Shown: positions 14,643 through 60,227 of the stretch, in pieces
Layout: every line of letters starts with the position of its first letter
Position numbering within the stretch: position 1 is the stretch's first letter
Origin: Eledone cirrhosa
Taxonomy: Eukaryota
DNA: 64,000 nucleotides
Reading direction: 5' to 3'
Assembly: GCA_964016885.1 (NCBI GenBank)
Contig: OZ024755.1
Coordinates: 30,194,001 to 30,258,000, forward strand
Notes under the pieces: model-generated
What the model was told of the DNA's origin: nothing
What the model saw: the letters and a program-made list of their open reading frames with translations, nothing else
Database searches by the model: none
Made by a program: the position numbers and the translations under genes

Positions 14643-15180
14643 TTGGTCGTTTTGGAAGCCTCAACAATGCAGATGGGTAAGTCTCCGAGTAACAGAATCT
14701 GGTGGGGAAGAGAGAGATGTAAGGGAATGTAGCATGAAATGTATAGTGTGTGGAGGAACGCAGGAAAGAGCGTAACAAATAAAAATAATAACACAAGATA
14801 GAGTTACCTTGGGAGAGATTTAATTGTCCCTATATTTCGGATTCGCATCCATCAACTGGGGGGTTTTCCGTGGGGGGGAGGGAGTTATCTGGTGGGGAGG
14901 AACGGTACGTGTCCTCTGCTGTCCGCTGTTTGTGACTCACAAACTATTAAATCTCTCCCAAGGTAACTCTATCTCGTATTATTATTTTTATTTTTTACGC
15001 TCTTTCCTACTTTCCCCTACACACTATACATCTCATTCTACATTCCCTTACATCTCTCTCTTCCCCACCGGATTCTGTTACCGGAGATTTACCCATCTGC
15101 ATTGTTGAGGCTTCCAAAACGACCAAAAACATATATCTTATTATTACACAATGCTTCAAGCAAACTTCAATACTCTCTTA
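14643..15180 (+). mobile_element. Fold-back element family D: ~180-bp inverted arms plus ~55-nt 3' tail
   Basis: 14643-14822 is the diverged reverse complement of 14947-15126; a degenerate hammerhead remnant (GGAU-GCGA-AUCC-GAAA) lies on the minus strand at ~14828-14860; flanked by (TA)n. Confidence 0.7.
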
Positions 15181-15198
15181 TATATATATATTTATATA

Positions 15199-15396
15199 TA
15201 ACGAAGGAAATGTGGTAAGGAACCAGATGGACCATAACGCACCAAAGCACTCAATACTTAGGGTAGTAGAGTGGGTAATAGGAACGAGTAGGACCCCGAC
15301 GGCTGAGCTCTAGCCGTTTCGACGGCTAATTCTGGACTAAAAATTTAGTCCAGAATTAGCCGTCGAAACGGCTTGAGCTCAGCCGTCGGAGTCCTA
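15199..15396. mobile_element. Fold-back element family C with terminal hairpin 15289-15396
   Basis: Same sequence family as 21644-21913 and 60228-60335; carries the half hammerhead GAAA-CGGC...GCCG-UC. Confidence 0.75.
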
Positions 15397-15862
15397 TATA
15401 TATATATATATATATATATATATATATATATATATATATATATATATATATATATATAGTATAGCATAGCAGTAATAATAATAATAATAATAATAATAAT
15501 AATAATTGTTTCTACTTTTGATACAAGGCCAGCAATTATCCCGGTGTATTACTGGTACTCTATTTTATCGACCTCGTAATGATGAAAGGCAAAGTTACAT
15601 GGCGTCCGTCACTCTACCAATACTACCAATCCACGAAGGGAACGGACAAAGATGATGTTCTTGTGTGTGTGTATATATATATATATATATATTTATATAT
15701 ATATATATATATATATATATATACATATATACATATATATATATACAAACGTACATACGTATATATATATATACAACCGTACATACGTATATATATATAT
15801 ATATATATATATATATATATATATAATATAAGATCAAAAGATGGTTAAAGGAGTTCCATATA

Positions 15863-15929
15863 TTTTATTATGCGCATTTCAAAAACAAACATCATCAAGC
15901 AATAATATTTGTGTTTTCATCAGATAAAA
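15863..15929 (-). ncRNA. Minimal type I hammerhead ribozyme (family B, within deleted element 15823-15943)
   Basis: UUUUAU-CUGAUGA, 16-position stem II with four G-U pairs and one mismatch, GAAA-U-GCGC-A-UA^AUAAAA; 6-bp stem I. Confidence 0.85.
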
Positions 15930-16909
15930 ACTCACCTCCTACACACAACATATATATATATATATATATATATATATATATATATATATATATACATATA
16001 TATACATATATATATACAAACGTACATATGTATATACGTTCCGTGTATTGATGTAAGGTTTGATAGCTTGTGCATTAAACAAAAATGTAGAGGCTAATGA
16101 AATGGCTTGGTTGAACGATTTCAGTGGTCTGTATTGGGACTGTTGATAACAGCGAAGGGGTAAGGGGCAGAGATCAGTTGTTTATCTTTTAGAATTTCTT
16201 TGGCCAGATTCTCCCTCTCTCTATCACTCATTCTTTCTCACTATCACTATCATTCTCTCTATCTATCTACCTATCTCTCTTTCACTCACGCTCTTTCTCT
16301 CTATCTCACGCACACATCCTTATCGCTGTTAGATCACCCACACCTATAACACAATGTTTCAAGAAATATATTATCTAATCTGTTTAGGAAGTAGCGTGTG
16401 GCAAGTACCATATTTGGTTGCCATACCCAGTCGGCGGTATGATTCTCTTCCATTTTTTCCTAGCCAGCACAGAGATGTCGGAGTCAAAGTTTCATTTACG
16501 AGTTGCCTCCCATACTGTACTGCGCATAAATATCAATAAATTACCTGTTGTTATATATGTCTGAGAGTTCTTTCCCTTTTCGGTTTTATCTTTACTTTAT
16601 ATGATTTGATTCTTAATTTACTTGCTCCCTTCCACCCCCCCCCCCCCTCTTTCTCTTTACATATATATATATAAATATATATATATATAAATATATATAT
16701 AAATATATATATATATAAATATATATATATATATATATAAATATATATATATATTGTTATACTTTGGGAGGGTCATGTTTCCAATAAGAAACACACGCAC
16801 CAGTTGCTTTCACTTCAATTTAATTTATTATATATTTATAAATTTACAAATTTATAAATTTCTGGTTGGTTGGTTGGTTCCACAACCAGATAGTTGTGTA
16901 TATATATAT

Positions 16910-16954
16910 AGTCATAGTTCTTTCGTCACACACTCTGTGACCTCTTCAGTGACT
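16910..16954 (-). ncRNA. Hammerhead ribozyme motif (family A)
   Basis: AGUCA-CUGAAGA-G-GUCACA/UGUGAC-GAAA-G-AA-C-UA^UGACU. Confidence 0.7.
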
Positions 16955-17353
16955 GGGGATTTCTTTCTTCGTTTCTGTGCCTTTCCTTTCTTCTATCCCA
17001 CGCCATTTTGTTTGTTTGTCCACACACAAGAAAGACGCAATGTTTAGGCAAATTACAGAGGCAGTAAGCATAAAAGAATTAAAACCAAAATTAAATTAAA
17101 TAGAAAATATGAGTGGAACAGCAACATCACAACTTACAATTAAGGACAAAATAAAAACACACACACACATAGAACAAACAACTTACAATTGAAAACACAC
17201 ACAAAATGAAAACACACACAAGACAAAATGAACACAAACACACACAGACTCCCGGATGTGGCGCATGCGCAAACTGAGCACGCAACCCACACACAAACAA
17301 AATGGCGTATGATAGAAGAAAGGAAAGGCACAGAAACGAAGAAAGAAATCCCC

Positions 17354-17398
17354 AGTCACTGAAGAGGTCACAGAGTGTGTGACGAAAGAACTATGACT
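17354..17398 (+). ncRNA. Hammerhead ribozyme motif (family A)
   Basis: AGTCA-CTGAAGA-G-GTCACA-GAGTG-TGTGAC-GAAA-GAAC-TA^TGACT; 5-bp stem I, 6-bp stem II, very short stem III. Confidence 0.7.
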
Positions 17399-57464: not shown

Positions 57465-57680
57465 TTAGGACCTATGATAAAAGGTGTTCCCGCTTTGGAA
57501 ATCTTGGCTTTTGTCATATCTATTAGATTTCCAAATCGCTTTTTGTTTAATTGGGTAGAATGTGATTGATGGATATTTGACTGCCATTTCTATCAGAAAT
57601 TGATAGCATACAGAGCCTTCAACATATGTGACATTGCTGGCTGTTGCTGTTGTGGCTGTTTTAGGGAAATCATTCAGCCC
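57465..57680 (-). pseudogene. Exon-like segment, possibly from a decayed Ig-domain gene
   Basis: TGTTTCACCAG acceptor, then GLNDFPKTATTATASNVTYVEGSVCYQFLIEMAVKYPSITFYP; the neighbouring segment 57866-57980 reads STLNIKYSPTI then hits a stop. Confidence 0.28.
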
Positions 57681-58125
57681 TGGTGAAACAGAGTTCAATC
57701 AAGGAAATATGAAACAATATACACACATATAATCAATGGTGAGAAAGCGGGGGCTGGGGAGCAAGTAGAGTGATTATGAAAGAAAGGAAGAGAGAGAAAG
57801 AGAAAGAAAGTAAGAAACGTGGGAATACGAAAGAGAGAGTAAGAGAAAGAAAGAAATGCGTTACACCTGTCTCCGTCAGCAGACGATCAGGTCAAAGTGA
57901 AGTTAAAAGAAGCTTATGTAACAGGTGTTGTTGTTCAGAAATAGTTGGGGAATATTTGATGTTCAGTGTAGAAGTTGAAACTTTGAATAAATACGCTAAC
58001 TCATATATTTATAAATAAATGCATACATAAAACACACACACGCACGCACACACACACACACACACACACACACACACACACACACACACACACACACACA
58101 CACACATACACACATATATATATAT

Positions 58126-58260
58126 ATTGTTATACTTGGGGAGGGTCATATTTGTGTAATATTGACAGAATTAATAACAGAACACACTCCCCAAATATAA
58201 CAATATTTGTTTCGACACACGATTTCATATCAAAAACCTCGCTAACTAATTCATCGCCGT
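58126..58260 (+). mobile_element. Highly deleted, diverged family A element
   Basis: ATTGTTATACTTGGGAGGGTCAT...CCCAAATATAACAAT plus a diverged tail. Confidence 0.65.
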
Positions 58261-58441
58261 TATATATATATATATATATATATATATATATATATAAACA
58301 AAAAGTAAAAAGACAAAAAACACCGTAGAAAATGATAGAGGAATTTTTTCAGTATAACATCAAAACATTTAAGAACAATATATATATATATATATATATA
58401 TATAATATAAGATCAAAAGATGGTTAAAGGAGTTCCATATA

Positions 58442-58508
58442 TTTTATTATGCGCATTTCAAAAACAAACATCACCAAGCAATAATATTTGTGTTTTCATC
58501 AGATAAAA
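58442..58508 (-). ncRNA. Minimal type I hammerhead ribozyme (family B)
   Basis: As 15863-15929, with one U-A to U-G change that preserves stem II pairing. Confidence 0.85.
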
Positions 58509-58621
58509 CAGGAGAACATGATATGAAGGCTAAAAAACACTTGTGGATAGTGCAGTTTTAAATCAACATATCAACTGCACTATCCACAAGTGTTTTTTAG
58601 CCTTCATATCATGTTCTCCTG

Positions 58622-58688
58622 TTTTATCTGATGAAAACACAAATATTATTGCTTGATGATGTTTGTTTTTGAAATGCGCATAATAAAA
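58622..58688 (+). ncRNA. Minimal type I hammerhead ribozyme (family B)
   Basis: TTTTAT-CTGATGA-AAACACAAATATTATT-GCTT-GATGATGTTTGTTTTT-GAAA-T-GCGC-A-TA^ATAAAA. Confidence 0.87.
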
Positions 58689-60227
58689 TATATGAAACTC
58701 CTTTAACCATCTTTTGATCTTATATTATGCATACTCCAGTCCCACAAACTGTAGAGTGCTTCTTATCCGATATCTGCATTGCTTTATTGTACTACAATAA
58801 AACTCACCTCCTACATATATATATATATATATATATAAGATAACAAGATATCATTTAAGATAATCCAGCTAGAGGTTATGAATACTCTGTATCGATGATA
58901 GTTTTAACGCTCGGCGTTGTTTGGCTCAACAAGAAATTTCCTTAGTCGGGTGATCGGTTTAAGAAAGTTCCTAGGCAGGCGGTTCTTGGAGTAATAATAG
59001 TAAAAGAATGAAGAATATCATTGTCCGTTGTACGATAGGGTTTATTTAAAGTACTCTTCATTCTTTTACTATATATATATATATAGATTAGAGCAAACAT
59101 CACGGACGCTCTATCTCAAAATTATTTTTGAAAAGCATTAGAAATGCGCAACCGGTAAAACTTAAAACCAAAACTGAATACTAACCAATACAATTACTAA
59201 TTCTCACTTATTCCTAATTAAACTATTTTTCACTGTGAACAATTTGTCAGCATTTTCTATTCCGTTTACCAATATATATATATATATATATATATATATA
59301 TATATATATATATATATATATATATATATATATATATATATATATATATATTTAAGCTATATGAGTCAATAAATCTCAATCGGCTTAATCAGCATTGAAT
59401 GCTAAACGGAAGAATCTCTTTGTCGCAGGGTGAGTAAATAGTAAACGGATTTTGAAAGGATTTTGTACAGAATGCGTAGAGAGCAGGGAGATATCTAGTT
59501 TGGAATAACAACAGCAAATATTTAGCGAAAATTAAGTTACCTAGATAATAGTCGGTTTCTGCTGTATTCGGCTAAATGCTCAACACATATTTGCAGCAAT
59601 TGCATAACCAAGTGGATCAGTTAGGCTTCATCTGCAGATATCTAGCTAGTTCAGTTTATAGACTAGGACTTGACAAGCTAAAAATAGCTTCATACCTCGA
59701 CATTTGACAAACCCATGAGTGTTTATATTATAGACATTTCTTGTCGTATTGTTGCTCCAAATCAACAGGATCGATAAATGAGTTTCTTTAGAAATACGAA
59801 ATTCCAATACATATCTGTATACAGCTATGCTCGAAGCTAAATCCCAATTCTATTCTATTATAAATTGAGCTAACTTATACAGCTTTATATGCAAATGAGA
59901 TTAATCACCTCATTTACACAAACGAGAAAACTATATATTCTCGCCTGATTTCAAAGTCCAGCAGTTGCAAGAGCGGGAGGGATCGTTCTGATGAGAACCA
60001 GTCCAGTTCGAAATGCGCATTGACGATTGTCCCCCTTGCCTCTGCTGGACACCATCAGGCGGCGATAGCCGGGGTAATTTTGCATAGCTACAGCTTTCTA
60101 AATGTTTATTATAAACATACAGTATTTCTTTAGAAATACGAAATTCCAATACATATCTGTATACAACTATGCTCCAAGCTAAATCCTAATTATATATATA
60201 TATATATATATATATATATATATATAT

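What the first reader, a model, noticed from the sequence alone, without database searches (positions are those of the whole stretch)
14643..58813. One fold-back layout shared by unrelated families: inverted copy from a fixed nucleotide, then direct copy with 3' tail
Seen: family A starts at ATTGTTATAC in four copies (730-, 16753, 37387, 58126) and ends with the same ~56-nt tail. Family B starts at ATAATATAAGATC in two copies (15823, 58402) and ends at CTCACCTCCTAC. Family D (14643-15180) has the same layout. Outer ends are fixed; inner junctions vary. They resemble MITEs but are asymmetric and carry ribozymes. Established: endonuclease-bearing PLEs often have an inverted 5' pLTR lacking the short 3' extension. 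Inference: these are integration products of self-primed or template-switching reverse transcription, and may be mis-annotated as MITEs.
Basis: partly seen in the sequence, partly recalled or inferred. Interest (0 to 1): 0.75.

Follow-up and report, generated by a model that had tools for sequence, protein, structure and literature searches.

The report
Two-ended Penelope retroelement insertions
These mirror-image repeats are short copies of three unrelated Penelope-type jumping genes, not DNA transposons; the layout is known, but nearly every copy pairs one long end with one short end, which suggests that both cut DNA strands start copying the element's RNA, each at its own fixed point.

Summary
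The layout is real. Families A, B and D are 5'-truncated insertions of three different endonuclease-bearing Penelope-like elements (PLEs) in (TA)n: A Neptune-like, B Hydra-type, D a third clade. Long ORF-bearing copies lie elsewhere in this genome, with intact frames for A and B. Outer ends fall at two fixed sites per family, tail-less (S1) or tailed (S2). Of 142 resolved two-armed insertions, 136 pair S1 with S2. Best reading, inferred: both nicked strands prime cDNA on one RNA at staggered sites, and the two cDNAs are joined head to head. Inner ends also cluster; in B they carry an extra G, like a capped RNA start. A and B carry hammerheads; none was found in D. The inverted copy with a one-sided tail is published (PMC3846280, PMC8557442). 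I did not find the pairing rule in print. This scan noted the same rule before, here and in other genomes. An apparent arm-specific allele was a search artefact.

The parts
14633..15180 (+). Family D insertion: tail-less inverted arm (to about 14942, the longer arm), then tailed direct arm 14943-15180; 3' end of a C-terminal EN+ PLE; no hammerhead found
15823..15945 (+). Family B (Hydra-type PLE) insertion B1: 107-nt tail-less inverted arm plus a stub of about 15 nt of the tailed arm; hammerhead core at 15923 on the - strand
16753..17611 (+). Family A (Neptune-like PLE) insertion A2: tail-less inverted arm 16753-17019 (270 nt), tailed direct arm 17020-17611 including the last ORF codons; S1 at 17557
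17354..17398 (+). Minimal type I hammerhead of family A (core at 17359, predicted cut after 17393); mirrored at 16949(-) and 37582(-)
17558..17611 (+). Family A tail between the two fixed ends S1 and S2 (54 nt, plus about 6 nt that run into the TA tract)
37385..37927 (+). Family A insertion A3: tail-less arm 37385-37698 is longer than the tailed arm 37692-37927
563..730 (-). Family A insertion A1: tail-less arm 730-608, then only the last 43 nt or so of the tail (605-563)
58126..58260 (+). Diverged A-like mini-insertion A4: arms of about 26 nt, a spacer and a tail 81.7% like that of A
58402..58815 (+). Family B insertion B2: tail-less arm 58402-58571 stops at the -170 hot spot with one extra base; tailed arm 58573-58815; S1 at 58728; 87-nt tail
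58620..58690 (+). Type I hammerhead of family B (core at 58628, palindromic stem III, predicted cut after 58682); mirrored at 58502(-)
15193..15396 (-). Family E fold-back (not in the finding): same one-long, one-short layout; also at 60226-60342, and long/long at 21638-21919

Best explanation
Families A, B and D are truncated, head-to-head insertions of three different Penelope-like retroelements in TA repeats, and each insertion likely arises when both nicked DNA strands prime reverse transcription on the element's RNA, one at the tail-less site S1 and the other at the tailed site S2. Shown: PLE identity, two fixed outer ends per family, S1/S2 pairing, free arm lengths, inner-end hot spots. 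Inferred: the GIY-YIG nuclease nicks both strands of (TA)n. Two RT subunits on one RNA take the two staggered start sites, helped by 2-4 nt of A/U pairing with the target. Each cDNA stops at random or at a capped RNA 5' end inside the pLTR. The two cDNA 3' ends are then joined by end joining, often with short added bases, and each strand is filled in from the other. Arms that run past one unit imply a tandem or circular RNA.
For: Autonomous partners: A has a 1238-codon stop-to-stop frame with RT, a CX4CxxC linker and GIY-YIG (L031); its distant relatives carry RVT_1 and GIY-YIG Pfam hits. B has many 821-codon frames at 98-99% identity. D fragments hit RVT_1 (E 4e-9) and GIY-YIG (E 7e-4, below the curated cutoff). 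Outer ends S1/S2/other: A 91/91/10, B 78/79/7, D 37/63/6. Pairing among 154 contiguous two-armed insertions: 136 S1/S2, 3 S1/S1, 3 S2/S2, 12 unresolved; p 2e-33 against free choice. In 200 kb fetched by position next to the window, 4 of 4 A, 2 of 2 B and 9 of 9 E head-to-head pairs are one long, one short. Tail-less arm longer in 32, tailed arm longer in 21, equal in 19 of 72. ORF on the tail-less arm in 8 and on the tailed arm in 6 of 14 two-armed full-length B copies. Subfamily alleles are shared by both arms. Opposite arm, internal pLTR and terminal pLTR carry 34, 41 and 39 private changes in 15 insertions, as expected from one template. In B, 49 of 94 arms stop at one motif, and 20 of 49 have G before it against 0.11 locally (p 5e-8; p 0.011 against 0.25); an extra G marks a capped 5' end in L1 insertions (PMC11702581, passages). 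In vitro, an Anolis PLE cuts and extends both strands and starts RT at two sites that bound the tail (PMC11167929).
Against: All mechanistic steps are read from genomic fossils; no RNA run was available. Six insertions break the pairing rule and 12 are unresolved. Many ends have no partner arm in the stretch fetched. One RNA versus two RNAs from one locus cannot be told apart. PMC11167929 saw no difference in start site between strands and no homology to the cut DNA, and did not test coupling within one event. The extra G is clear only in B, and some of those G could come from the partner arm. S1 is AT-rich like the target, so nuclease trimming at S1 also fits. The inversion junction was not confirmed in raw reads.
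Confidence: 0.62

Rival explanations
1. Both arms are first made with the tail, and the element's nuclease then cuts one end at the AT-rich S1 site while resolving the intermediate.
For: Proposed for the tail in PMC8557442 (passage). S1 is AT-rich in all three families. It gives one tail per insertion and allows either arm to be longer.
Against: Both tail boundaries are RT start sites in vitro (PMC11167929). Three S1/S1 insertions exist. S2 carries the same short AT match as S1.
Confidence: 0.2
2. One cDNA (or an antisense RNA) folds back and primes on itself, making the second arm as a copy of the first.
For: Arms are near-identical and share subfamily alleles. Some junctions are perfect small palindromes. 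Tailed-arm-longer cases (21 of 72) fit if copying stops at S1.
Against: In 32 of 72 the tail-less arm is longer, so the tail has no template in it. Junction overlap is at chance level. Both arm types stop at the same inner site.
Confidence: 0.1
3. A few ready-made palindromes were amplified whole, as MITEs by a DNA transposase or as hairpin RNAs by retrotransposition.
For: Many B copies are about 410-440 nt long with 170-nt arms and look like one MITE family. An earlier scan note reports edited hairpin RNAs copied into DNA (e1-8673030, not checked here).
Against: 70 of 72 junctions are distinct. Lengths run from 117 nt to 8.5 kb. The ends are asymmetric and are the 3' ends of RT-bearing elements.
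Confidence: 0.05
4. The inversions are library or assembly chimeras.
For: No read set laid here spans an inversion junction.
Against: Arms differ by private mutations. Both outer ends are fixed and lie in (TA)n. Raw reads of another sample with the same species label leave the element at S1 into (AT)n in 247 reads. The layout is published for other animals.
Confidence: 0.02

Closest known systems
Complex insertions of EN+ Penelope-like elements: inverted 5'-truncated copy plus one-sided tail (Pen2a_Av, PMC3846280; Fig. 2 legend of PMC8557442)
   Same: Head-to-head inverted copy, partial tandems, tail at one end, (TA)n target, hammerhead in the pLTR.
   Different: Tails here are 45-87 nt, not 30-40. 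The papers call the tail optional or 'often at one end'; here it is on exactly one end in 136 of 142, on either arm. No target-site duplication can be read in (TA)n.
Poseidon_Ac in vitro system (PMC11167929)
   Same: Two RT start sites bounding the tail; both DNA strands cut and extended; AT-rich target.
   Different: Different clade. It reports no homology at the start site, whereas here 2-4 nt match (TA)n. It did not examine pairing of sites within one event or explain inverted arms.
Hydra clade of C-terminal EN+ PLEs (PMC8557442, section 11), for family B
   Same: DKT motif, CxCX5C linker, no CCHH, CxxC and CxH around E and N, hammerhead, (TA)n target.
   Different: RWT in place of RWK; the unit is about 3.7 kb against generally under 3 kb.
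L1 twin priming (PMC11702581, passages)
   Same: Both DNA ends prime on one RNA and the two cDNAs are end-joined; an extra G marks the cap.
   Different: L1's second primer anneals at variable sites next to the end of the first cDNA, giving mostly non-overlapping pieces. Here both starts are fixed and 45-87 nt apart, so the arms overlap and form a palindrome.
MITEs / non-autonomous TIR elements
   Same: Short, high-copy, long inverted ends, TA context.
   Different: Ends are asymmetric, inner junctions are unique, and the sequence is the 3' end of an RT-bearing element.

Membership tests
EN+ Penelope-like elements (A, B, D) | Single ORF with RT followed by a GIY-YIG endonuclease, linked to the same terminus | tested here: met
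   A: L031 and L304 frames, motifs read, relatives with RVT_1 and GIY-YIG; Pfam itself gave no hit on A or B. B: 821-codon frames. D: RVT_1 and weak GIY-YIG on fragments.
EN+ Penelope-like elements (A, B, D) | pLTRs from partial tandems, inverted 5'-truncated copy, one-sided tail | tested here: met
EN+ Penelope-like elements (A, B, D) | Type I hammerhead in the pLTR | tested here: inconclusive
   Met by motif for A and B; none found in D; cleavage not tested.
Neptune clade (A) | CX2-5CxxC linker and CCHH motif in the endonuclease | tested here: met
   CX4CxxC before the GIY-YIG core; two cysteines inside it and two histidines after it (translation; definition from PMC8557442).
Neptune clade (A) | Placement in an RT tree with named Neptune elements | not tested
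   No named reference sequences were loaded; 'Neptune-like' rests on motifs.
Hydra clade (B) | DKT, CxCX5C linker, CCHH absent, CxxC and CxH around E and N | tested here: met
   Translation of L281 against section 11 of PMC8557442.
Hydra clade (B) | N-terminal RWK motif and length under 3 kb | tested here: inconclusive
   RWT found; unit about 3.7 kb. The paper gives length as 'generally'.
Naiad/Chlamys | Endonuclease N-terminal to the RT | tested here: not met
   GIY-YIG is C-terminal in all three families.
MITE | Symmetric terminal inverted repeats reaching both ends | tested here: not met
   136 of 142 resolved insertions have unequal ends.
MITE | Cognate DNA transposase with the same ends | not tested
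   No transposase search was run; the ends belong to RT-bearing ORFs.
Non-LTR retrozyme | Tandem non-coding units, each with a type I hammerhead | tested here: not met
   Window copies are head-to-head single arms of coding elements; definition from bioRxiv 10.64898/2026.07.22.740005, part 1.

The most novel reading that the evidence does not exclude
Penelope-like elements integrate by obligate two-ended priming: a protein dimer on one tandem or circular RNA assigns one start site to each nicked strand, so the tail is the fixed offset between two RT active sites, the inverted pLTR is the second cDNA, and the short MITE-like hairpins are both cDNAs running off a capped RNA begun inside the pLTR. 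The rule holds across at least three PLE lineages.
Probability: 0.45. Interest if true: 0.7.

Novelty: new member of a known kind. Interest (0 to 1): 0.42.

Why it matters
How PLEs, the sister group of telomerase, form their inverted repeats and tail is stated as open in PMC8557442 and only partly answered in PMC11167929. A near-strict one-tail-per-insertion rule, with either arm free to be long, narrows the models and can be tested directly in the existing in vitro system. The genome holds many young, intact Hydra-type frames suited to that test. For annotation, abundant 0.1-0.5 kb hairpins in TA repeats are retroelement stubs and should not be filed as MITEs.

Tried and rejected
1. Arm-specific allele. 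At one B site the two arms differed in 26 of 27 insertions, which looked like editing or a two-template rule. With the other allele as query, 10 of the 11 two-armed loci scored at that site were G/G (one insertion was fetched twice; the eleventh is the window copy). 1643 of 1661 raw reads carry G. The query held a private mutation and the search skips common words. Rejected, and the two similar sites in A (both the query's own alleles) are set aside on the same ground without a separate test.
2. Microhomology at the inner junction: not above chance. 54 of 72 junctions showed unmatched bases, but the longest of these are element sequence that my reference missed.
3. Arm ends at the hammerhead cut: only a few cases; no hot spot.
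4. Twin hairpins after S1 and S2 (lead from earlier scan notes): plain folding gave a bulged hairpin after S1 of B but no clear twin, and nothing shared by A and D. Inconclusive; no covariance model was built.
5. Rfam gave only microsatellite-driven microRNA hits among the 150 of 237 rows shown, and no hammerhead. Pfam gave nothing on the A and B proteins.
6. No RNA holder was listed. Short contigs and RAD reads did not span a junction. Empty sites were not examined.
7. No fold of the protein dimer was obtained, so the dimer step rests on the prediction in PMC11167929.
8. Dropped rows: 6 of 160 candidate pairs were under 80% element, among them the window's A4 and one S1/S1; 13 of 85 junctions could not be chained. 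Two A copies on one small contig are duplicates and were counted separately.
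Full report
Observation. After masking simple repeats, self-comparison shows an inverted arm from a fixed base and a direct arm that runs on into a tail, in families A (four copies), B (two) and D (one), all in TA tracts. A hammerhead scan found 9 cores against 0.27 per shuffle; six lie in A and B, none in D. The window lies in a 3.0-Gb genome. 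Named protein relatives are from Octopus vulgaris and Argonauta, so the host is probably an octopod.

What the families are. A search with the A terminus led to L031, which holds a 1238-codon frame with RT, a CX4CxxC linker and a GIY-YIG domain with CCHH. Its nearest relative is 67% identical, and distant ones carry RVT_1 and GIY-YIG annotations. B leads to an 821-codon frame with the Hydra motifs DKT, CxCX5C, CxxC and CxH and no CCHH. The search scored 150 of 33,698 candidates; nearly all were 98-99% identical and many had full frames, so B is young. D leads to a third RT + GIY-YIG element about 40% like P0038/P0039; its clade is not resolved. The three are different lineages of endonuclease-bearing PLEs, and the window copies are their truncated 3' ends.

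Outer ends. Over all loci fetched, de-duplicated by genome position, outer ends fall at a tail-less site S1 or a tailed site S2: A 91/91 with 10 others, B 78/79 with 7, D 37/63 with 6 (first seen). Tails are about 54-60, 87 and 45-50 nt. In five of the six starts examined the element matches the TA tract for 2-4 nt; the D S1 figure (1 nt) was cut at an uncertain position.

Pairing. Of 160 candidate head-to-head pairs, 154 were at least 80% element sequence. 136 are S1/S2, 3 S1/S1, 3 S2/S2 and 12 unresolved; p is 2e-33 against free choice. Several queries contained the tail, which would favour S2/S2 and not mixed pairs. In 200 kb taken by position beside the window, all 15 head-to-head pairs of A, B and E were one long, one short, beside several solo ends. 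Insertions span 117 nt to 8.5 kb.

Arm lengths. Of 85 junctions tried, 72 resolved: tail-less arm longer in 32, tailed arm longer in 21, equal within 10 nt in 19. Among 20 full-length B copies, 14 show both outer ends, all S1/S2, with the ORF on the tail-less arm in 8 and on the tailed arm in 6. A fold-back copy cannot add a tail that its template lacks, so self-priming fails for the tail-less-longer class. Overlaps of 2 nt or more occur in 12 of 72, as by chance; most junctions hold unmatched bases; 70 of 72 are distinct.

Template. Both arms share subfamily alleles. Where an arm runs through an internal pLTR, the opposite arm, internal copy and terminal copy have 34, 41 and 39 private changes in 15 insertions. 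This fits identical templates at birth: one RNA circle, or a uniform tandem. Arms that pass a full unit (L208, L308, L311) need such a template. Inner ends cluster 170 nt inside S1 in B (49 of 94 arms; two of the 49 may be read-through variants), with G before the stop in 20 of 49 against 0.11 locally. Weaker clusters lie near 270 in A and 295 in D. An extra G marks capped 5' ends in L1 insertions (PMC11702581, passages), so the B hot spot is likely an RNA start in the pLTR. No RNA data could test this.

A lead that failed. One B site differed between arms in 26 of 27 insertions. The opposite-allele query returned G/G copies and raw reads show G in 1643 of 1661. It was an artefact of the query and is rejected.

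Mechanism. Best reading (0.62): the nuclease nicks both strands of (TA)n; two RT subunits on one RNA start at S1 and S2; the cDNAs stop at random or at the capped end and are joined head to head. The steps after the sequence pattern are inferred. PMC11167929 (main text and start of Methods read) shows both strands cut and extended and two start sites bounding the tail for an Anolis PLE, with a predicted dimer. Rivals are nuclease trimming at S1 (0.2), self-priming (0.1), amplification of ready-made hairpins (0.05) and artefact (0.02).

What is known. The inverted truncated copy, one-sided tail and (TA)n preference are described in PMC3846280 (passages) and PMC8557442 (passages, section 11 and four supplement rows). 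The first favours self-priming on an antisense template, the second nuclease resolution. PMC13282606 (passages) lists recently active Penelope-like families and MITEs in Octopus vulgaris; the passages seen do not describe this layout. The retrozyme preprint 10.64898/2026.07.22.740005 was read in part 1 of 5. Searches returned no paper stating the S1/S2 pairing rule; subscription papers are not covered, including early Penelope work. The scan's own notes report the same rule in this genome and in others. My reading was written down before I opened them; they are unchecked and are not counted as support.

Verdict. Real, and a known PLE structure in new members of known clades. The quantified pairing rule and the cap-like hot spot add a testable constraint on an open mechanism. 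Interest 0.42.

Noticed in passing
window 15193-15396, 21638-21919, 60226-60342: Fourth fold-back family (E) in (TA)n, folding back just before the GAAA half of a hammerhead-like motif; 11 of 12 pairs seen are one long, one short. No coding partner was sought.
   Followed up: partly
window 59783-60190: A separate type I hammerhead (core 59988) lies between two 66-nt direct repeats 342 nt apart; possibly a unit of a tandem retrozyme.
   Followed up: no
window 21288-21577, 45078-45279, 55894-56124, 54877-54935: Further palindromes, most next to TA tracts; 21288-21577 is related to 138-352. Probably more families with this layout.
   Followed up: no
window 4744-4881, 13032-13462, 34111-35714, 38956-39680, 41559-42131, 43964-45037, 53598-53839, 56780-57430, 60524-60738: A very abundant 200-nt repeat, often next to (TAA)n, in tandem, inverted and 78-nt satellite forms.
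   Followed up: no
window 6804-6996: Old, about 80% identical family A remnant ending near S1 without a TA tract.
   Followed up: no
L204:3700-4900, L125, L364, L369, L372: Insertions of families A, B and E sit side by side in the same TA tract, suggesting that each insertion leaves a target for the next.
   Followed up: no
L031:3353-7066 and L281:5197-7659: Both A and B proteins carry long asparagine-rich stretches, as described for rotifer Penelope ORFs in PMC3846280.
   Followed up: no
window 17298-17307: A motif like a YY1 site (label recalled, not from a call) lies a few bases after the A inner-end hot spot, consistent with an internal promoter.
   Followed up: no
window 17807-18691, 23091-23614, 26411-26999, 32197-32365, 45475-45748: Another dispersed repeat family flanking the long TA/CA arrays.
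   Followed up: no
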